Shown here: positions 30,134 through 37,557 of the stretch, one piece after another
Position numbering within the stretch: position 1 is the first letter of the stretch
Layout of the letters: each line of letters opens with the position of its first letter
Program-made: the position numbers and the translations under genes
Origin: a virus
Lineage: Duplodnaviria > Caudoviricetes
Strand: one strand, 5' to 3'
IMG/VR virus record: IMGVR_UViG_3300028581_000010
DNA: 64,000 nt
Notes under the pieces: generated by a model
Told to the model about the DNA's origin: nothing
What the model saw: the letters and a program-made list of their open reading frames with translations, nothing else
The model's database searches: none

Positions 30134-30773
30134 GATGTTCTGCTGTTGCGTTTAAGGTTACTCTGTCGATGCCCCATCTCTGGGCAATATCCGTCTTCTC
30201 CGGAATATAATTCAGCTGCAGGCAGGCCTCCTTACACAGCGTCCTGCGCCAGCCGTGGCCTGTGCCGTCGTTGGGTAGGCACAGGGCAGTATTTGATGCG
30301 CCTGTGACCTCGCAGGTAAATGAGGCTTTGCGCTCATAATGGTCTAAGACTGCCCGAAAGATCGGATATATCTCCTTTGGTAGATGGTGGTTTCCCTGCC
30401 ACACCATACTCCCGAACTTCTCCTTGAAGATGAACCCGTGAATGTAGTATTCCTGCGGGGAGGTCGCAGAAGGCAACCCACAGGCGGGCTGACCGCGTAC
30501 AAGCTCTATAAGCGTAGATAGTTGTTCGGAGAGGTCGGCTGCTATGGGAAGCCAACCCGCACCAAACTCAAAGCCATATCTCAGGTTGACGTAGCTGCCA
30601 TCCTGCTGCATCTTTGCAGCCACTGCCGCACCGAGAATGGTCTCTATCTGCGTGTCCATCTCGGTGTAGATCAATGGGTTGTCCTCTACAATCTTGCGCC
30701 CTGCCTCGGCCAGGTGTATCTTGTCAAACTCAATCATACGGCTAAGCCCGCGCGATAACTTTAAGCTTTCCAT
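30111..30773 (-). CDS. phage hypothetical protein (GW...KEKFG...CE.TG...GW.RTLC type)
   Basis: Motif pattern common in phage hypothetical proteins. Confidence 0.6.
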   Translation of the reverse strand: MESLKLSRGLSRMIEFDKIHLAEAGRKIVEDNPLIYTEMDTQIETILGAAVAAKMQQDGSYVNLRYGFEFGAGWLPIAADLSEQLSTLIELVRGQPACGLPSATSPQEYYIHGFIFKEKFGSMVWQGNHHLPKEIYPIFRAVLDHYERKASFTCEVTGASNTALCLPNDGTGHGWRRTLCKEACLQLNYIPEKTDIAQRWGIDRVTLNATAEHHEKNANV

Positions 30774-31128
30774 TTGGAAGCTCCTGTATCTCGCAGCTCA
30801 TCTCCTGCTCTCGCAGGAACTTCTTGAGCTCGAGCTTTGTGTAACCCTGCTTGACCTTGCTGAGACCGTTGCCCAGCTGACGCTCGATGGAGGCATCCCA
30901 CGGATCGTACTTGAACGATGCGCAGCCGTCCTCCATGTTAACACCTATGTCGAACTTGCCCGCAGGGTTAATTGCGACCAGGTCATAGGTCAGTGTGCCG
31001 GCTACGTCCGAGGAATACATTCTTGCCTTGGAGTTAACCGCAAACTTTGTCCATCCGCTCTCGGCGAATGCCTTCTTAAGCACTTCTATATTTTTGAATT
31101 GTGTCTTTACTGCTACAGCGTGACTCAT
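30742..31128 (-). CDS. DUF1257/Ycf35 family protein
   Basis: MSHAVAVKTQFKNIEVLKKA..D..W..Q.Y..G pattern. Confidence 0.82.
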   Translation of the reverse strand: MSHAVAVKTQFKNIEVLKKAFAESGWTKFAVNSKARMYSSDVAGTLTYDLVAINPAGKFDIGVNMEDGCASFKYDPWDASIERQLGNGLSKVKQGYTKLELKKFLREQEMSCEIQELPNGKLKVIARA

Positions 31129-31436
31129 AGTATTTTGATCTGGTCGTATGTTTGTTTGACCTGAACACTCAGCTTGATTATGTCTTTTGTGGCGAAGCTC
31201 TTCTCGATCAACGCCGTGAACTCCGCGCAAGATAGCTTGATCGGAGGTACATCTTGATTGGCGGACTTGATGCAGATCTCGTCCAACTCGGCGTTTACAG
31301 AGAAGATGTCTCCGTTAGCCACTTCACAATATGGTAGTATCGTCGGCGTTGTGTCGCCCCTGAACCACACGTATAACATGTCGTTCTGGGGCGTATCGGC
31401 CAACGTATCACCTGATTCGAATTCGTTCATTTCCAT
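31125..31436 (-). CDS. hypothetical protein
   Basis: Packed in the operon. Confidence 0.5.
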   Translation of the reverse strand: MEMNEFESGDTLADTPQNDMLYVWFRGDTTPTILPYCEVANGDIFSVNAELDEICIKSANQDVPPIKLSCAEFTALIEKSFATKDIIKLSVQVKQTYDQIKIL

Positions 31437-31439
31437 GGT

Positions 31440-32447
31440 TTAAACCGCAAGTCTTCTGAAGTACTCACCAGAGATGTCTCTGACATCCGACAAGTCCTCG
31501 GCTTCTTTGATCAGGTCTTCAAGGTGAGTGCGCAGTACAACTGCTGCTTCCTTGTCGTCCTGTACCGCACTGTCCTTGGTCAACAGCGTCTCAATCTCGT
31601 TGAGCTTGTTGTTGATCTTTGTGTCCTCCACAAAGTTGAGAGTGCGAAACTCGGATATGTGCTGTAGCAGCGTCTTTACGCTGGCCTCGGAGGCTACCTC
31701 CTTTTTCTTTAGCTTGTCTACAACAACCGTGCAGTGCTCGACTACCTTGCCGCGCAGTTCTGCAACAACGTCCGCAACGAACGTATTGATCTTGCCCAGG
31801 TGGTTATCCAGCTGCTCCTGGTAGATGTCGGCGTACTTAGCCTGCTCCTCCTGCTTGGCCTGGTCGGCTGCGCGCTCTCTGTCGATCTCCTTGTGGACAT
31901 CAACAGCAGCGAACTCCGTAGGCATTGCAATCTCGTAGGAGATGATCTCGAAGTAGAACTTGGTCCGGACGTCTTCCTTGGAAGGATAGAGTGTGTCCAG
32001 TGCGCCTACGTCGACGAGCTTGGAGTTGTTCTTGTAGAAGTCGATCGCCTCTTTCTTGTAGTCTTCGTACTTCTCAACGAACTCATCTACAAGGGCGTAG
32101 AACTCATTCTTGTATTTCTCCAGCTCCTTATACACTGCAAGGAACATCTTCTTGGATACGAAGTGCGACTGAGGTACCGTAGGCAACCTGTGAGAGTTGC
32201 CATATAGGTAGTTGCGCGCCCGTCCCTGAAGGCTCTTGAACTTGTTGTATACTTCCGGCTTGATCAGCATCTTCTTACCTAGCTTGATCACATCCGGAAG
32301 CTTGTTGTCCAGCTTGATATCACCCTCTGTGAGGGAGTAACTCATCCCCCACATACCGATGCTGACGCAGACCAGCTTTCCATCCTGGAATAGGCGGTCG
32401 TAATACTTCTGTAATGTCTTAGTCGTATCCTGTTGGATATCTATCAT
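31440..32447 (-). CDS. DUF3150-like protein
   Basis: ..FYALVDEFVEKYEDY...YPSKEDVRTKFYFEI pattern. Confidence 0.6.
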   Translation of the reverse strand: MIDIQQDTTKTLQKYYDRLFQDGKLVCVSIGMWGMSYSLTEGDIKLDNKLPDVIKLGKKMLIKPEVYNKFKSLQGRARNYLYGNSHRLPTVPQSHFVSKKMFLAVYKELEKYKNEFYALVDEFVEKYEDYKKEAIDFYKNNSKLVDVGALDTLYPSKEDVRTKFYFEIISYEIAMPTEFAAVDVHKEIDRERAADQAKQEEQAKYADIYQEQLDNHLGKINTFVADVVAELRGKVVEHCTVVVDKLKKKEVASEASVKTLLQHISEFRTLNFVEDTKINNKLNEIETLLTKDSAVQDDKEAAVVLRTHLEDLIKEAEDLSDVRDISGEYFRRLAV

Positions 32448-32947
32448 GATATGTCTATTTTGAGTTGGCGCATGGTTTCCTCGAAGCTCTCTGCTTGCCC
32501 CTCGGTTGTGACCATGACGAGCTTGCCTCTGGCGCGCTTGCGCATGACGTCGAGATCCTCGGCGTGTGAGGCTGCGAATGGAATGAACGACCCCAGCGTA
32601 TTGATGATGTGCTCATCTTTAACTTCTTTGCCCTCGGAGAAGGCATTGAACATGGAGTCCTTGAATACTTCCTCGATCTCCGCACCTGTGAAGGTGTCTG
32701 TGGAGCGGACGAACTTCTTAATTGAGAAGTCAGCCGGAGAGCGACCATACTTGTTAACGACCACGTCCCAGATCTCCTTGCGGTCCTCGGCAGACGGTAG
32801 ATCCATCCAGAACAGCTGGTCGAATCTTCCCTTACGGATTAGCGCCGGAGGCAGGATTGTGTGGTTGTTGGATGTGGCTACGATGAAGGCCGGGTTATTG
32901 CGGTCGTTGAGCCAGGTCAGAAATGTACCAAATATACGGGAGCTTAC
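32444..32947 (-). CDS. ycf46: Ycf46-like AAA+ ATPase, exon 2
   Basis: VSSRIFGTFLTWL..FIVATSN..LPPALIRKGRFDQLFW.DLP. Confidence 0.9.
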   Translation of the reverse strand, partial: VSSRIFGTFLTWLNDRNNPAFIVATSNNHTILPPALIRKGRFDQLFWMDLPSAEDRKEIWDVVVNKYGRSPADFSIKKFVRSTDTFTGAEIEEVFKDSMFNAFSEGKEVKDEHIINTLGSFIPFAASHAEDLDVMRKRARGKLVMVTTEGQAESFEETMRQLKIDIS

Positions 32948-33081
32948 CAATTATGTTATCTTGCAGGCTTTTTATCCCACAAATCTGCAGCTTGTATTCG
33001 CTGCAGTTCAGCATATCTTTTCAACCCATAAGGTTGCCGAGGACTCGTGGCTAAGTTATATTCCTTCACAGGGTTCATTAG

Positions 33082-33990
33082 CTATGCGTTGCGCGTGTCC
33101 AGCCTTTTATGTCTAGACTTCCGCTCTGATTCCCGTTGCAGGGTTCCAGATTTTTTCCTCAGTTTTACAACAGGAATCTCTTCCTGAAGCGGCCAATATT
33201 GGCAATAACGTTCAAATTTTCTATCTAACCATACGCGAGCATCCTTATACATAAAGTCCATGACGGCCTTGGCTGCTTTTCTTCCACCTTTTGCATAAGT
33301 TTTTACCGCTCCGCATGTAGCAAGTTTTGTTCTAGTGTAGCCCTCGACATGTTGTTCGAAGACATCTTGAAGCATATTTAGGAATTGTTCCGTTCCAATA
33401 ATTGTAAGTCCTGGAGTCTTAGTTGCTGTATTGTACTTCAAACTACCGTCACCGTCAAAGTAACCTCGAATGAAATGCTTGAGTAACTTTGTTGGAACAA
33501 TTTCTGTGCTTGGAAAAACAACTTTCTCTGATTTAGCTGGTATACAGCCTAGTTTGATAAGTTGGTCGGACAGCCCTCTGTGGCATACCCGGAGTCTGCA
33601 ATACTCTTTATACTCGAATTTACGTTTCTTTTTGCAAAACGTAATTCTAGCATCCGGAGCGATCGCTTTCTTAAACTTTTCCAAGTGGTTAAGATCCTTA
33701 CTGTTAAGCTCTATTGAGATTTGTCCGCCACAATTCGAGCCATCTGCATATAAAAATCCTAACCAGTATGCTTTCTCTTCAGAGTCTATTACATCGAAGA
33801 AGTCTTCTACGTATTTATGTGTGGCGTACGCCGTGCATGTTCGTATAGGAATTCCTCTTGAAGTTATGACTCTAGACACCACATTACTGTCGTGCCTGAA
33901 CTTTTTTGCTATTTTTTTGATAGATAACTTGTCTACGTTGTATGCATGCAAGATCTTTTCTTCGTCTATGTTATTACTGTATTGGTTCAT
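33082..33990 (-). CDS. intron-encoded double-motif LAGLIDADG homing endonuclease
   Basis: AYWLGFLYADGS and FIRGYFDGDGS. The 3' end of the ORF runs into the intron core. Confidence 0.95.
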   Translation of the reverse strand: MNQYSNNIDEEKILHAYNVDKLSIKKIAKKFRHDSNVVSRVITSRGIPIRTCTAYATHKYVEDFFDVIDSEEKAYWLGFLYADGSNCGGQISIELNSKDLNHLEKFKKAIAPDARITFCKKKRKFEYKEYCRLRVCHRGLSDQLIKLGCIPAKSEKVVFPSTEIVPTKLLKHFIRGYFDGDGSLKYNTATKTPGLTIIGTEQFLNMLQDVFEQHVEGYTRTKLATCGAVKTYAKGGRKAAKAVMDFMYKDARVWLDRKFERYCQYWPLQEEIPVVKLRKKSGTLQRESERKSRHKRLDTRNA

Positions 33991-33996
33991 ACAGCA

Positions 33997-34024
33997 AACA
34001 TAGCAGATCTTACGCGCTTGTCAA
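33997..34024 (-). promoter_or_regulatory. intron-internal promoter TTGACA-N16-TATGTT (extended TGn)
   Basis: Lies in the first 40 nt of the intron. The LAGLIDADG ATG is 6 nt after the -10. Confidence 0.65.
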
Positions 34025-34035
34025 TACTTTTATCA

Positions 34036-35103
34036 ACCGGTGTCTCCCCTGCCCGATGTAGCGTCTGTGCTAAGGCTTTTCTCTACCTCATCCAGCAGAA
34101 TAACGCACTTGCCAATAGACTCGATGGTCTTGATGAGCTCACGCATGTTGCGCTCGGAGTCACCTACGAGGGACCCGAAGACCTTGCCGATGTCCAGATA
34201 GAACAGCGGGCAGTCGAACTCTTTGGCAATTGCTTTAGCCAACAGCGTCTTACCTGTGCCCGGAACCGAGGCGAGCAGAATGCCCTTCGGTAGAGGTAGC
34301 TTGTAGGCTCGGGCTGCTTTCGAGAATGCTTTCTTACGGGACTCGATCCATTTCTTGAGCCCGCTGAGCCCTCCAACCTGCTTGAAGCTGACGTCTGTCT
34401 CGATGTAGTCCAGCAGTTCTGTCTTCTTGAGCTGTGCGATCTTCTCTGTAAACACTGATGCAACAAACTTGTTGTCGAAGGCCATGTTCTCTACGTAGGC
34501 CATACTGAAGGCGTTCTCTACCTCAACGTGGGTCATGCCCTTGGCGGCCTCCACGGCAGCCTCGCGCACCTCGTTTGTGATGACCAGCTTGTCTTTCTTG
34601 GCGTCTTCCTTGGCTTTATTGACCGACTCCAGAATGAAGTTGAGCCGCTCGTTGATGGCCTCCTCAGTGGGAAGCGCGTAGTCTACGAGCTGTATCTCCT
34701 TCTCGAGCTCGGGAGGTATCGCAAACGTATGGCCAACGAATATGACCATGTTGCTGCGCGCCTTGAGGTTGTTCCAGGCGTTTCTGAACAGCCGAGTGAT
34801 GATAGGCTTGTCGAAGTGCTTGTGAAAGTCCTTCAGAATGAACACACAGTCCGTAGCCTTGTAGCTCTGGAGGTAGCGCAGCAGGTCCGCTGGCACGATA
34901 GTCTCCTCAGGATGCTCGTCGCGGGCACCCTCTGAAATCTCTTGTAGTCCTGTCTGGCAGTCCCATTCATGTATGCGCAGTTGTTTATCCTGCTTCATGA
35001 GGGAGATGATGTCCAGTCGAGCCCGCTGCTCTTCATGCGTCATTACCCATACGGCGGAATATGATGCATTCTTGTAGTTCTTAATCTTTGTTACGAAGTC
35101 CAT
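34036..35103 (-). CDS. ycf46: Ycf46-like AAA+ ATPase, exon 1
   Basis: FKQVGGLSGLKKWI, PKGILLASVPGTGKTL and LLDEVEK. Confidence 0.9.
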
Positions 35104-35853: not shown

Positions 35854-37557
35854 ATGTTTGACCATGCTGATATTGAAAAGGCTGCAGCCCAGCTGTTTTC
35901 AAAGAAAACTGCCAAAGCTACATTCCTGGCGCGGCAGCTGATGTTGTCTACGCTGCCTGCGTCGTATTTTGTTGAGAATTATTTGTATGACAACGAGGGG
36001 CGTCTCCAGAGTCTGGAAGCGTTCCCTATGCTGAAGCAGGTTTATGACAACATGCCCCAGAAGTTGGTGCTGAAGTGCAGTCGTAAAACACTTAAGTCTA
36101 CGCTGATCAGCAATTTGATTTGTCTCAATTTGGTCAGATGGAACTATTATAAAATGATGTACGTGGGCCCCCAGGAGCTTACTGTGAAATATTTCTCGAG
36201 TAACTATTTACCCCCACGATTTGAAAGCCCGCGAGTCAAGAGACTGCTGGTTCAAGGGTGGGAAAAGAATGATGTCTTTGAAAAGATTCTCGGCGATACT
36301 AGGAGCAGCGTACTTTTTAGATACGTGAAAGATGATGCGACACGAACTCGTGGCCCCGCCATTGACTGTGTTGTGTACGATGAGGTTCAGGACATATTCT
36401 ATGACCAGATACAGATCGTACAGGAAACCATGGCGATGTCTCCGTTTAAACGTGAAATATTTGCAGGTACTCCGCTCGATACTACTAACACACTCACAAG
36501 GATCTGGAAACAGTCCAATCAGCTTGAGTGGATGATGCGGTGCAGTTGCAAACACTGGAACTCCCTCACCGAGGGAAATGAGCCGCTGCTGATGATTCAG
36601 CCCCACGGGCTTAGCTGCTCTAAATGTCTAAAGAAATTGAACTCCAGAGAGGGTGAGTGGGTTGCCACCAACCCCTCGGGCCACCTTCTGACAGGCTACC
36701 ATTTGGCACAGCCTATTCTACCACACTACAATGAGAGTGAGAAGGAATGGAAGGAAATCTACGATAAGGTGCATAGCGGTAGCAAGGATCTCAAGACAAT
36801 CATGAATGAGACCTTCGGGTTGACCTACGACATAGGCACCAAGCCGATTACCGAAGAAGAATTGCGCAAGCTATGTGTGCTTGGGCCTGTAGAGACCGGC
36901 ACAGACAAGCTTGCCATATGGACCAAGAACAAATCTAAATATAAGATCTACACTCTTGGTGTCGACTGGGGCGTATCTATGCACCAGTCAAGAACTGTCG
37001 TAACGGCAGGGGCGTTGCGCAATGACGGCGTCTACGAGGTCTACTTCTCTAAAATTTTCAAGGGATTTGATCATGAGGCGCATATTAAACAGATAGCTGA
37101 GTTGGCCAACAAGACAAAGTCTTATTGTGTTGCTGACTCGGGTCCCGACCCTATTCGGGGCATTAGTTTGTGCGAGCAGACCAGTCCGACAAGGTCTCAG
37201 CTCGCAGCGTATCGCAGGTCCAAGGTGATTCAATACACGGACCTGGGTGATTATGACTGGAGGCAGAACCGCTGGGTGCTGCACAGGTCGGACGTAATCT
37301 CTCTGGTTATGCGGCAACTTAAAGCCGGCAAGATTATCTTTCCTCAGTGGGACGACATGTCTGAATACATGCAGGACGTCCTCAACATCTATATCGAGGT
37401 CAAGGATGGCCTGTATGGGCAGGAACTAGTGTATGACCATCACGCCAAGCAGCCAGACGACGCTATGCACAGTCTTGTGTTCGCAGTCTGTGCGGCTTAT
37501 ATGGCTGCTGGTGATGCCTGCCTACTAGGGTCCAGCTCGTCCGCCAAGGAATTCTAA
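35854..37557 (+). CDS. terL: terminase large subunit (GpA-like)
   Basis: CSRKTLKST, YDEVQD, HLAQ, TFGL, GVDWG, DSGPD and PDDAMHS. Confidence 0.88.
   Translation: MFDHADIEKAAAQLFSKKTAKATFLARQLMLSTLPASYFVENYLYDNEGRLQSLEAFPMLKQVYDNMPQKLVLKCSRKTLKSTLISNLICLNLVRWNYYKMMYVGPQELTVKYFSSNYLPPRFESPRVKRLLVQGWEKNDVFEKILGDTRSSVLFRYVKDDATRTRGPAIDCVVYDEVQDIFYDQIQIVQETMAMSPFKREIFAGTPLDTTNTLTRIWKQSNQLEWMMRCSCKHWNSLTEGNEPLLMIQPHGLSCSKCLKKLNSREGEWVATNPSGHLLTGYHLAQPILPHYNESEKEWKEIYDKVHSGSKDLKTIMNETFGLTYDIGTKPITEEELRKLCVLGPVETGTDKLAIWTKNKSKYKIYTLGVDWGVSMHQSRTVVTAGALRNDGVYEVYFSKIFKGFDHEAHIKQIAELANKTKSYCVADSGPDPIRGISLCEQTSPTRSQLAAYRRSKVIQYTDLGDYDWRQNRWVLHRSDVISLVMRQLKAGKIIFPQWDDMSEYMQDVLNIYIEVKDGLYGQELVYDHHAKQPDDAMHSLVFAVCAAYMAAGDACLLGSSSSAKEF

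What the first reader, a model, noticed from the sequence alone, without database searches (positions are those of the whole stretch)
32948..34035. Group I intron in an unusual host gene (Ycf46-like ATPase) with a promoter inside its 5' end
Seen: removing 32948-34035 joins GDTG to VSSRIFGTFLTW, just after Walker B. A local hairpin (UGAUA-AAAG-UAUUG) could shift both splice sites by 1 nt, giving GL instead of GV with the same frame. Known: phage group I introns mostly sit in nrd, td, pol, terL, recA and lysin genes, and they favour conserved, important sites. Inference: this ATPase is conserved and important in this phage group, indirectly supporting a function for the module.
Basis: partly seen in the sequence, partly recalled or inferred. 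Interest (0 to 1): 0.65.

Follow-up and report, generated by a model that had tools for sequence, protein, structure and literature searches.

The report
Mobile group I intron splitting phage ATPase
A lake-water jumbo phage's AAA+ ATPase gene is interrupted just after its Walker B motif by a mobile group I intron that carries its own DNA-cutting enzyme gene; the call and its coordinates are right, but it is one more member of a large family of phage introns, not a new kind of element.

Summary
Confirmed. Bases 34035-32948 (minus strand) are a group I intron of the phage IA type, related to the Twort introns. A covariance model built from 25 relatives without the window hits 33151-32948 (166 bits, E 3e-47). 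On a 30-sequence alignment, 92% of cells pair and 41 of 53 pairs show compensatory changes. The same model finds the Twort orf142 and SPbeta bnrdE introns. Rfam's own model misses this family.

Removing the intron gives GDTG|VSSRIF. Sixty-six of 67 uninterrupted homologs have V here and none has L, so the 1-nt shift is unlikely.

The better guide sequence is 33198-33190, just before P2 and P3. It pairs with CGGU|UGAUA in 9 bp and puts U34036·G33193 at the splice site. The LAGLIDADG gene therefore lies in the P1 loop, and its last 38 codons run into the ribozyme core.

The promoter-like site is real but untested. It would start a leaderless mRNA at the endonuclease AUG.

Related phages carry other introns in this ATPase at Walker A and Walker B. 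Earlier scan reports describe Rfam-blind LAGLIDADG introns in phage ATPase genes. No splicing data could be obtained. Verdict: a new member of a known kind, of modest interest.

The parts
34036..35103 (-). Exon 1 of the AAA+ ATPase gene (356 codons; Walker A GTGKT, Walker B ILLDE; ends GDTG)
   Evidence: Pfam AAA positions 1-73, E 1.9e-18. 85% identical to the uninterrupted homolog P0002.
32948..34035 (-). Group I intron, 1088 nt; starts UGAUAA and ends ...GAUAACAUAAUUG with the terminal G (omega-G) at 32948
   Evidence: Family members L013 and L005 end with the identical GATAACATAATTG.
34031..34039 (-). P1 5' strand: exon CGGU (34039-34036), splice site, then intron UGAUA (34035-34031)
   Evidence: 9-bp duplex with 33198-33190, -9.0 kcal/mol. 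U34036·G33193 is the wobble pair at the 5' splice site.
33190..33198 (-). Internal guide sequence (P1 3' strand), UAUUGGCCG
   Evidence: Same position and the same (U)UGCC motif as the guide sequence of ORF-less relatives L033, L038, L049, L059, L091, L099 and L117, and of L127. Conserved block with phiR1-37 and MT835481 in alignment A1.
34020..34037 (-).
   Evidence: -3.0 kcal/mol. Its 3' strand repeats the TATTG of the true guide sequence (34026-34022 and 33198-33194).
33997..34024 (-). Sigma-70-like promoter match: TTGACA, 16-nt spacer, extended -10 TGcTATGTT; the -10 ends 6 nt before the ORF's ATG
   Evidence: 10 of 12 matches plus the TG. One of only two sites of this quality on either strand of the 64-kb window. 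Function not tested.
33944..34017 (-). Stable hairpin that buries the -10 box and the ORF's AUG when this stretch is part of the long pre-mRNA
   Evidence: For the 96-nt stretch 34020-33925 that holds it: -29.3 kcal/mol, z = -4.84, 0 of 200 shuffles fold as well.
33082..33990 (-). LAGLIDADG homing endonuclease ORF (302 codons) lying in the P1 loop; motifs LGFLYADGS (77-85) and IRGYFDGDGS (174-183); no Shine-Dalgarno sequence
   Evidence: phrog_4645 'endonuclease', E 1.7e-59 over residues 6-264. Pfam LAGLIDADG_3 24.6 bits against a cutoff of 22.5. Homologs annotated as intron-encoded endonucleases in Staphylococcus and Bacillus phages. Residues 265-302 (33198-33085) are translated ribozyme sequence, from the guide sequence to P7.
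33171..33186 (-). P2: CAGGAA-GAGA-UUCCUG, with a GNRA tetraloop
   Evidence: -9.7 kcal/mol, and recovered in the MFE fold of the ORF-deleted construct. Relatives L002 and L117 have a GNRA-capped P2 in the same place.
32962..33162 (-). Ribozyme core: P3 33162-57/33042-37; P4 33149-46/33129-26; P5 33143-41/33134-32; P6 33124-22/33095-93; P6a 33118-13/33102-097; P7 33087-83/33015-11; P7.1 33082-78/33054-50; P7.1a 33072-70/33065-63; P8 33036-32/33026-22; P9 33006-00/32991-85; P9.1 32981-76/32967-62
   Evidence: Coordinates. Covariation. Leave-one-out model hit 33151-32948, 166.4 bits, E 2.9e-47.
32444..32947 (-). Exon 2 of the ATPase gene (167 codons plus stop; starts VSSRIFGTFLTW; sensor 1 and lid domain)
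   Evidence: Pfam AAA positions 81-130 and AAA_lid_3. 89% identical to P0002 residues 359-524 without gaps.

Best explanation
Bases 34035-32948 (minus strand) are a mobile group I intron of the phage IA type, related to the Staphylococcus phage Twort introns. It lies in the coding sequence of a conserved phage AAA+ ATPase, 14 codons after Walker B.

Inferred from structure and homology: in the pre-mRNA, exon bases CGGU plus intron bases UGAUA pair with the guide sequence UAUUGGCCG (33198-33190) to form P1. U34036·G33193 marks the 5' splice site. The core P2-P9.1 (33186-32962) folds behind it. A free guanosine attacks after U34036. The freed exon then attacks after the terminal G at 32948. This joins GGU to GUA and restores GDTG-VSSRIF in a 523-residue ATPase.

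The intron carries a two-motif LAGLIDADG homing endonuclease gene inside the P1 loop. Its reading frame runs on through the guide sequence and the 5' half of the core as far as the UAG in P7. Ribosomes on that frame would therefore unfold the ribozyme. Inferred: the endonuclease cuts intron-less copies of the gene around ACACCGGT|GTAAGCTCC in co-infecting relatives, and repair copies the intron in.

Shown here: the split gene, the conserved and covarying RNA fold, homology to introns known to self-splice, and exact restoration of the frame. Not shown: splicing itself, endonuclease activity, and promoter use.
For: (1) Family. The motif pair GCAACGCATAG...GAAAAGATATGCT occurs in more than 117 IMG/VR contigs. 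Many are ORF-less units of about 250 nt inside genes, such as terL in MT835481 and topoisomerase II in phiR1-37.
(2) Covariation. On a 30-sequence MAFFT alignment, 92.0% of cells pair, against 30-44% when partners are slid. Forty-one of 53 pairs change on both sides. The covariation score is 0.53 against 0.16 in shuffles (0 of 500 reach it). The helices follow the group I order, with P3 and P7 crossing.
(3) Independent model. A covariance model built from 25 relatives without the window hits the window once, at 33151-32948: 166.4 bits, E 2.9e-47, full length, ending at 32948.
(4) Link to proven introns. The same model hits three sites in Twort (E 2e-13 to 4e-7). RF00028 calls group I introns at the same three places (63.6-100.9 bits). 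The model also hits inside SPbeta bnrdE, whose record notes an intron.
(5) Blind fold. The MFE fold of an ORF-deleted construct recovers P2, P3, P4, P5, P6, P6a, P7.1, P7.1a, P8, P9 and P9.1.
(6) Junction. Sixty-six of 67 full-length homologs have V after GD(S/T)G, one has T and none has L. Both exons are collinear with P0002.
(7) P1. The duplex with the distal guide sequence scores -9.0 kcal/mol, against -3.0 for the local hairpin. ORF-less relatives put U·G at the splice site using the G of the same UGCC motif. L127 uses GCCG on an identical ACCGGU| exon end.
(8) The endonuclease homology ends at residue 264, exactly where the guide sequence begins at nt 33198.
(9) The intron is compositionally foreign: GC 0.405 against 0.53 in the exons.
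(10) The same 2671 nt, intron included, are 100% identical in four other metagenome assemblies.
Against: Rfam RF00028 does not match the window even at E <= 10. It also misses the ORF-less relative L002 and 13 other family loci, although it finds the Twort introns.

P7 and the R and S elements were fixed by the search pattern, so they carry no covariation evidence (helix 6).

P1 rests on energy and on homology of position, not on a covariation test. The exon part has only 4 bp, and a second U·G (U34035·G33194) lies next to the first. P10 is weak: at most 3 bp by eye.

No empty-site allele close enough to show the exact insertion point was obtainable. P0002 has no DNA on file. The 72%-identical intron-less L122 reads GGG|GTC at the site.

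Confidence: 0.88

Rival explanations
1. It is the same intron, but splicing uses the sites one base downstream: 5' site after U34035 and 3' site after G32947. This gives GGU-UUA-AGC, that is G-L-S. The local hairpin, or the second U·G pair of P1, would define the 5' site.
For: In the local hairpin the only U·G with U on the 5' strand is U34035·G34022. In the distal P1, U34035·G33194 is also a wobble pair. G32947 follows G32948, so either could serve as the terminal G, and the frame is kept.
Against: None of 67 uninterrupted homologs has L at this position; 66 have V. Family members L013 and L005 end with exactly GATAACATAATTG, which places the terminal G at 32948. The model alignment also ends at 32948. 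In relatives, the wobble G is the G directly before CC (UGCC), which corresponds to G33193 and not G33194. The local hairpin is 6 kcal/mol weaker than the distal P1.
Confidence: 0.06
2. The intervening sequence is a decayed intron that no longer splices. The ATPase would then be a pseudogene or be made as two separate halves.
For: No splicing data. RF00028 is silent. A TTG at 32950 could formally start exon 2.
Against: The core scores 166 bits, inside the range of its family (104-203 bits), and every helix is intact. Both exons are free of stops and frameshifts and are 85-89% identical to an uninterrupted homolog. The break falls inside the AAA+ core, between Walker B and sensor 1 (Pfam AAA 1-73 and 81-130), where separate halves are unlikely to fold. 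The TTG lies in the intron tail and has no ribosome-binding site. The endonuclease ORF is intact.
Confidence: 0.04
3. The interruption is an intein, or a free-standing endonuclease gene inserted without any splicing element.
For: The ORF is in the same frame as exon 1 (34035 minus 33990 = 45 nt). LAGLIDADG domains also occur in inteins.
Against: Three stop codons separate exon 1 from the ORF (TGA 34035, TAA 34032, TGA 34023). Exon 2 is in a different frame from the ORF. No Hint or splicing blocks were found. About 250 nt of conserved, covarying ribozyme follow the endonuclease domain.
Confidence: 0.01

Closest known systems
Staphylococcus phage Twort orf142 group I introns (I1-I3). Classed as subgroup IA2, with self-splicing shown by Landthaler & Shub 1999 and the I2 ribozyme structure solved by Golden et al. 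2005 (these three points from my own knowledge). PMC11878797 mentions orf142 exon skipping and says such phage introns were previously classed IA2.
   Same: The model built from this intron's family aligns end to end with all three, at the places RF00028 calls group I introns. The helix order is the same, including an extra helix between P7 and P3'. The 3' tail is nearly identical (Twort ...GUAACAUAAUUG, here ...GAUAACAUAAUUG). Both lie in a phage protein-coding gene.
   Different: The relation is distant: 24-46 bits against 104-203 bits within the family. RF00028 sees Twort but not this family. The aligned Twort introns are compact. This one holds a LAGLIDADG gene in the P1 loop. The host gene is different.
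The intron in the Walker A codons of the same ATPase gene in a related lake phage (locus L127, ENA ERZ27313227)
   Same: Same RNA family (176.8 bits). Homologous LAGLIDADG ORF, also placed between the 5' splice site and the guide sequence (36% identity). Same guide sequence GCCG pairing with the same exon end ACCGGU|. The 3' exon starts nnAAGC in both.
   Different: Different site: VPGTG|KS, about 70 codons upstream. The cores are only about 70% identical, and other family members are closer (L029, 75%), so the two are probably independent invasions. The L127 ORF stops just after the guide sequence and does not read into the core.
T4 td intron and I-TevI. The review PMC3984707 lists Gibb & Edgell 2010, whose title reports that delayed translation of I-TevI is needed for efficient splicing. 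The late promoter and masked ribosome-binding site are from my own knowledge.
   Same: A phage group I intron with a homing endonuclease gene. The layout suggests the same solution to the clash between translating the ORF and folding the ribozyme: an internal promoter, and a hairpin that hides the translation start in the long transcript.
   Different: I-TevI is a GIY-YIG enzyme and its gene lies in the P6 loop, with a ribosome-binding site. Here the enzyme is LAGLIDADG, the gene is in the P1 loop, there is no ribosome-binding site, and the putative start would give a leaderless mRNA. Regulation here is inferred only.
Group I introns in core genes of large gut phages: crAss-like Delta and Zeta groups (PMC7886860) and Jug phages (PMC12880540)
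   Same: Many introns per genome, in core genes beyond the classical list. Endonucleases of several families, including LAGLIDADG. Conserved motifs are hit.
   Different: Those are gut phages with other host genes (MCP, PolB, primase, terL, nrdD). This is a freshwater jumbo phage and a COG0464-type AAA+ ATPase of unknown role.

Membership tests
Group I intron (structural class) | Conserved helices P3-P4-P5-P6-P7-P3'-P8-P7'-P9 in this order, with P3 and P7 crossing (a pseudoknot) | tested here: met
   92% of cells paired against 30-44% when slid. P3 has 5 of 6 pairs with compensatory change, P4/P5 4 of 7, P6/P6a 9 of 9, P8 4 of 5. P7 is invariant because the search pattern fixed it. The blind MFE fold recovers the nested helices.
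Group I intron (structural class) | P1 formed by the 5' exon end and an internal guide sequence, with a U·G wobble pair at the 5' splice site | tested here: met
   CGGU|UGAUA pairs with UAUUGGCCG (33198-33190), 9 bp, -9.0 kcal/mol, U34036·G33193. The guide sequence is homologous in position and motif to that of ORF-less relatives and of L127. No covariation test is possible because the exons differ. A generic search for P1 stems did not beat shuffles.
Group I intron (structural class) | A guanosine as the last intron base (omega-G) | tested here: met
   G32948 ends GAUAACAUAAUUG, the same tail as in L013, L005 and the best-scoring Twort intron hit.
Group I intron (structural class) | Excision restores an uninterrupted host reading frame at a conserved position | tested here: met
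   GDTG|VSSRIF. V in 66 of 67 homologs. No gap against P0002.
Group I intron (structural class) | Guanosine-dependent self-splicing | not testable with these tools
   Needs an in vitro assay or RNA reads.
Group I intron, subgroup IA (phage type) | Extra helix or helices (P7.1/P7.2) between P7 and P3' | tested here: met
   P7.1 (33082-78/33054-50): 4 of 5 pairs covary and 98.7% are paired. The optional inner hairpin P7.1a has a GNRA loop. The finer subgroup (IA2 or IA3) was not determined, because the subgroup models of PMC11835236 are not on hand.
Group I intron (structural class) | Detectable homology to introns shown to self-splice | tested here: met
   Model R1 hits the three Twort introns (45.8, 33.1 and 24.3 bits) and SPbeta bnrdE (23.4 bits). 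RF00028 confirms the Twort loci.
Rfam RF00028 Intron_gpI (the curated model) | Score at or above the gathering threshold of 50 bits | tested here: not met
   No hit in the window at gathering or at E <= 10. No hit for the ORF-less relative L002 or for 13 other family loci. This is a limit of that model, not a structural defect: it finds the Twort introns, and R1 bridges the two.
LAGLIDADG homing endonuclease | One or two LAGLIDADG motifs, each with the conserved acidic residue | tested here: met
   LGFLYADGS (77-85, D83) and IRGYFDGDGS (174-183, D181), read from the translation. Pfam LAGLIDADG_3 24.6 bits against a cutoff of 22.5.
LAGLIDADG homing endonuclease | The alpha-beta-beta-alpha-beta-beta-alpha fold, and cleavage of the intron-less allele | not tested
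   No structure was predicted. No solved relative is detectable by sequence. A cleavage assay is needed.
Classical AAA+ ATPase (COG0464, 'SpoVK/Ycf46/Vps4') | Walker A, Walker B, sensor 1 and lid domain in one chain | tested here: met
   Pfam AAA positions 1-73 in exon 1, and 81-130 plus AAA_lid_3 in exon 2. The full-length homolog P0002 matches CDC48, FtsH and PAN models over residues of about 200-476, all far below their cutoffs.
Ycf46 orthologs | Specific orthology to cyanobacterial or plastid Ycf46 | not tested
   Only the sources' own names say SpoVK/Ycf46/Vps4 family. No NCBIfam equivalog matched.

The most novel reading that the evidence does not exclude
The endonuclease may be expressed apart from the host gene. 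On this reading, an intron-internal sigma-70-type promoter (34024-33997) starts a leaderless mRNA at the AUG (33990). In the long ATPase pre-mRNA, the same AUG and the -10 box are locked in a -29 kcal/mol hairpin. Ribosomes would then never enter the frame that runs through the guide sequence and core, and splicing could proceed. The distantly related intron in L127 also has a -10-like box ending 5 nt before its ATG, no ribosome-binding site, and a small hairpin over the start. This suggests a shared design in these lake-phage introns.
Probability: 0.3. Interest if true: 0.45.

Novelty: new member of a known kind. Interest (0 to 1): 0.3.

Why it matters
For annotation: gene callers split this ATPase into two fragments plus an 'endonuclease', and the standard Rfam model does not flag the intron. 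The same holds for more than a hundred related viral contigs, and for the published records of phiR1-37 (topoisomerase II) and MT835481 (terL).

For biology: it adds a conserved AAA+ ATPase of unknown role to the list of phage genes that introns colonise. The gene is hit at three nearly invariant motifs in different relatives, which fits a gene that the phages cannot afford to lose. The layout is also a compact case for studying how a ribozyme and its passenger gene avoid interfering with each other. The endonuclease gene sits in the P1 loop, its frame overlaps the core, a possible leaderless start lies at the AUG, and a hairpin masks that AUG.

None of this changes what is known about group I introns in principle.

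Tried and rejected
- Rfam cmscan at the gathering threshold and at E <= 10 on the window, on the ORF-less relative L002, on 13 other family loci and on L001 found no RF00028 hit. The Twort control shows the model does work on other phage introns.
No whole genome is held for this window.
- No DNA is on file for the closest uninterrupted homolog P0002. The 72%-identical intron-less L122 reads GGG|GTC at the site and is too diverged to serve as an empty site.
- A generic script that looked for the best U·G-closed stem upstream of P3 in family members did no better than shuffles (6.9 against 6.5 bp). The P1 argument therefore rests on the recurrent UGCC guide motif seen in individual ORF-less members, not on that statistic.
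- Folding the ORF-start regions of L127, phiR1-37 and PJN02 gave no significant stability (z -0.2 to -0.7). The strong hairpin is thus specific to the window's intron.
- The idea that the window's intron and the L127 Walker A intron are sister copies that moved within the gene was rejected. Their cores are 70% identical and their endonucleases 36% identical, and other family members are closer.
- Sequence search of the endonuclease against solved structures found nothing meaningful. I judged structure prediction unnecessary for this verdict.
- The four other metagenome copies are 100% identical and add no variation.
Full report
WHAT IS THERE. The gene lies on the minus strand. An ORF at 35103-34033 encodes 356 residues that match Pfam AAA over profile positions 1-73. 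It ends ...ILLDEVEKSLSTDATSGRGDTG and is followed directly by TGA. An ORF whose conserved part starts at 32947 matches AAA positions 81-130 and the AAA lid domain. Between them lies a 302-codon ORF (33990-33082) with two LAGLIDADG motifs. Deleting 34035-32948 gives a single 523-codon frame. Metagenomes hold many uninterrupted homologs of about 525 residues; the closest is 85% identical over exon 1 and 89% over exon 2. They run through the junction without a gap as GD(S/T)G-VSSRIFG. An intein is excluded: three stop codons follow exon 1, and exon 2 is in another frame than the ORF. The interval has GC 0.405, against 0.53 in both exons.

IS IT A GROUP I INTRON? Rfam's Intron_gpI model gave nothing, even at E <= 10, so I looked for relatives. 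A blastn search of phage records matched the 150 nt after the endonuclease domain to two places. One is the gap between an 'endonuclease' and the second piece of a split topoisomerase II gene in Yersinia phage phiR1-37. The other is a 250-nt ORF-less gap in a split terminase gene in MT835481. Two invariant blocks from that alignment, GCAACGCATAG and GAAAAGATATGCT, were used as a pattern.

I wrote down a structure from the window's sequence: P3, P4, P5, P6, P6a, P7, P7.1, P7.1a, P8, P9 and P9.1, with P3 and P7 crossing as in group I introns. On a plain MAFFT alignment of 30 diverse members, 92.0% of cells pair under this structure, against 30-44% when partners are slid by 1-3 columns. Forty-one of 53 pairs show changes on both sides. 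The covariation score is 0.53 against 0.16 in shuffles, and none of 500 shuffles reach it. P7 is invariant because the search pattern fixed it.

A covariance model built from 25 members without the window finds the window exactly once. The score lies inside the family's own range of 104-203 bits. The minimum-energy fold of an ORF-deleted construct, computed without constraints, recovers all the nested helices.

The same model also aligns to three adjacent sites in Staphylococcus phage Twort and to a site inside SPbeta bnrdE, whose record notes an intron. RF00028 calls group I introns at those same three Twort sites, at 63.6-100.9 bits. The family is therefore tied to self-splicing introns that are already known, even though Rfam's model cannot see the family itself. 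The extra covarying helix between P7 and P3' is the mark of subgroup IA, the usual phage type (PMC11878797).

WHERE ARE THE SPLICE SITES? Three lines favour GV.
- Among the uninterrupted homologs retrieved, 66 of 67 have V, one has T and none has L.
- The intron tail GAUAACAUAAUUG is identical in family members L013 and L005 and nearly identical in the best-scoring Twort intron hit. This puts the terminal G at 32948.
- The local hairpin is probably not P1. In ORF-less relatives the guide sequence lies a few bases before P3, or before a short GNRA-capped P2, and typically reads UGCC.... The G before CC pairs with the last exon U. Examples are GUCGGU|...GCCGAC in L049, AUCGGU|...GCCGAU in L038, CUGCGGU|...GCCGCAG in L099 and CUAGGU|...GCCUAG in L117.

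The window has this element at 33198-33190, UAUUGGCCG. It is followed by P2 (CAGGAA-GAGA-UUCCUG, 33186-33171) and then P3. It pairs with CGGU|UGAUA (34039-34031) in nine base pairs at -9.0 kcal/mol, against -3.0 for the local hairpin. U34036·G33193 is the wobble pair at the splice site.

A caveat remains. The neighbouring U34035·G33194 is also a wobble pair, the exon part of P1 has only four pairs, and P10 is weak. I put the 1-nt shift at about 6%.

CONSEQUENCE FOR THE ANATOMY. The endonuclease gene lies in the loop of P1, not in a peripheral loop of the core. The match to the PHROG endonuclease family covers residues 6-264 (E 1.7e-59). Residue 265 begins at nt 33198, the first base of the guide sequence. 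The last 38 codons are therefore translated ribozyme, running from the guide sequence through P2-P6 to the UAG inside P7. Translating the ORF and folding the ribozyme cannot happen together on one RNA molecule. A TATTG repeat flanks the inserted block (34026-34022 and 33198-33194). Without the block, P1 would be a simple hairpin, CGGUUGAUA-AAAG-UAUUGGCCG. This fits an endonuclease gene that invaded an ORF-less intron. It is a 5-nt observation and nothing more.

THE PROMOTER. TTGACA, a 16-nt spacer and TGcTATGTT at 34024-33997 match 10 of 12 consensus positions and carry the extended -10 TG. Only two sites of this quality occur on either strand of the whole 64-kb window. The -10 box ends 6 nt before the ATG, and there is no ribosome-binding site. 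A start at the usual distance would therefore give a leaderless mRNA beginning at the AUG. In the long transcript the -10 box and the AUG sit in a hairpin at 34017-33944. The 96-nt stretch 34020-33925 that holds it folds at -29.3 kcal/mol, z = -4.84, and none of 200 shuffles fold as well. This recalls the arrangement known for T4 I-TevI. In the review's reference list, the title of Gibb & Edgell 2010 reports that delayed translation is needed for efficient splicing (PMC3984707). The L127 intron also has a -10-like TATACT ending 5 nt before its ATG and no ribosome-binding site. Its start region is not unusually stable, however, and the phiR1-37 and Bacillus phage homologs have ordinary ribosome-binding sites. 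I rate the promoter reading at about 0.3. It is not testable here.

IS THE HOST GENE UNUSUAL? It is not on the classical list of nrd, td, pol and terL (PMC11878797). However, large phages are now known to carry introns in many core genes (PMC7886860; PMC12880540, about 18 per genome). Within this ATPase family the gene is a frequent target.
- Of the 120 best homologs, 16 end at ...CV(I/V)L(I/V)D inside Walker B, 5 end at ...VPGTG inside Walker A, and one, the window's, ends at GDTG.
- In L120 and L121 the Walker B break holds a different intervening sequence. It has an HNH ORF and sub-threshold RF00028 matches at both ends.
- In L127 the gene has two interruptions. The Walker A one belongs to the same RNA family as the window's intron (176.8 bits) and has a homologous LAGLIDADG gene in the same place.
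- Both R1-family ATPase introns follow ACCGGT, precede nnAAGC and use the guide sequence GCCG.
- Their cores are only 70% identical and their endonucleases 36% identical, and other family members are closer. They look like independent arrivals from a pool that favours ...GGU| sites, not one copy that moved within the gene.

The synteny terL / small ORF / ATPase / DUF3150 is shared by all these contigs. It does not tell us what the module does.

WHAT THE SCAN ALREADY KNEW. Earlier follow-ups on other genomes describe LAGLIDADG-bearing group I introns in the P-loops of phage phoH, Sak4-like, terminase and AAA+ genes. One notes a widespread phage intron family that Rfam does not detect. My results agree with these. 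They place this case as a further member at a new site, after Walker B, in a new host gene.

VERDICT. It is a new member of a known kind. Interest is modest (0.3). Its value lies mainly in correct annotation and in the tidy anatomy: the ORF in the P1 loop, its frame overlapping the core, a masked start and a possible leaderless transcript. Splicing, endonuclease activity and promoter use all remain to be shown experimentally.

Noticed in passing
L127:862-4397 (ENA ERZ27313227 contig, related lake phage): The homologous ATPase gene carries two interruptions. One is an R1-family intron with a LAGLIDADG ORF between the G and K codons of Walker A (VPGTG|KS; 5' splice site 1746|1747, 3' splice site 2824|2825). 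The other lies in Walker B (ILID|E) and has an HNH ORF. The Walker A intron and the window's intron both sit in ACCGGT|nnAAGC and use the guide sequence GCCG.
   Followed up: partly
L120:6018-6848 and L121 (related ~190-kb phage contigs): The same ATPase is split 18 codons upstream of the window's site (ILVD|EIEK). The intervening sequence is a different one of 831 nt, with an HNH ORF and P/Q/R/S-like elements. RF00028 matches both ends only below threshold (20.4 and 17.9 bits).
   Followed up: partly
Proteins P0041-P0118: Of the 120 best ATPase homologs, 16 stop inside Walker B and 5 stop inside Walker A. About one in six genes of this family is therefore called as fragments in public data.
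   Followed up: partly
L003-L119 (IMG/VR contigs): The intron family defined here occurs in more than 117 viral contigs and is not detected by RF00028. Many copies follow a GGT glycine codon in P-loops (TGVG|KSRTG in L049, L103 and L114; TGVG|K(T/S)R in L030 and L057). Others sit in what looks like the dUTPase (I/V)DSDYRG motif (L020, L083, L106, L027). Several loci hold three to four model hits close together (L013, L029, L030, L052, L098).
   Followed up: partly
L001:1927-3250 (Yersinia phage phiR1-37) and L002:2950-3213 (MT835481): Published phage records hold R1-family introns that are not annotated. In phiR1-37, topoisomerase II is listed as two CDSs (g327, g329) around an 'endonuclease' (g328). 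In MT835481, terL is split by an ORF-less copy. Bacillus phage PJN02 (L129) has one between an 'exonuclease V' CDS and a 'Dda-like helicase' CDS.
   Followed up: partly
window 34026-34022 and 33198-33194: A TATTG direct repeat flanks the block that holds the endonuclease gene inside the P1 loop (7 of 9 bases match in the wider context A(G/A)TATTG(A/G)C). It may be a trace of how the gene entered an ORF-less intron, or it may be chance.
   Followed up: no
window 30742-32447 and 35854-37557: The neighbours are conserved with the ATPase across related contigs: a DUF3150 protein directly downstream, and a terminase large subunit (phrog_675) on the other strand upstream.
   Followed up: no
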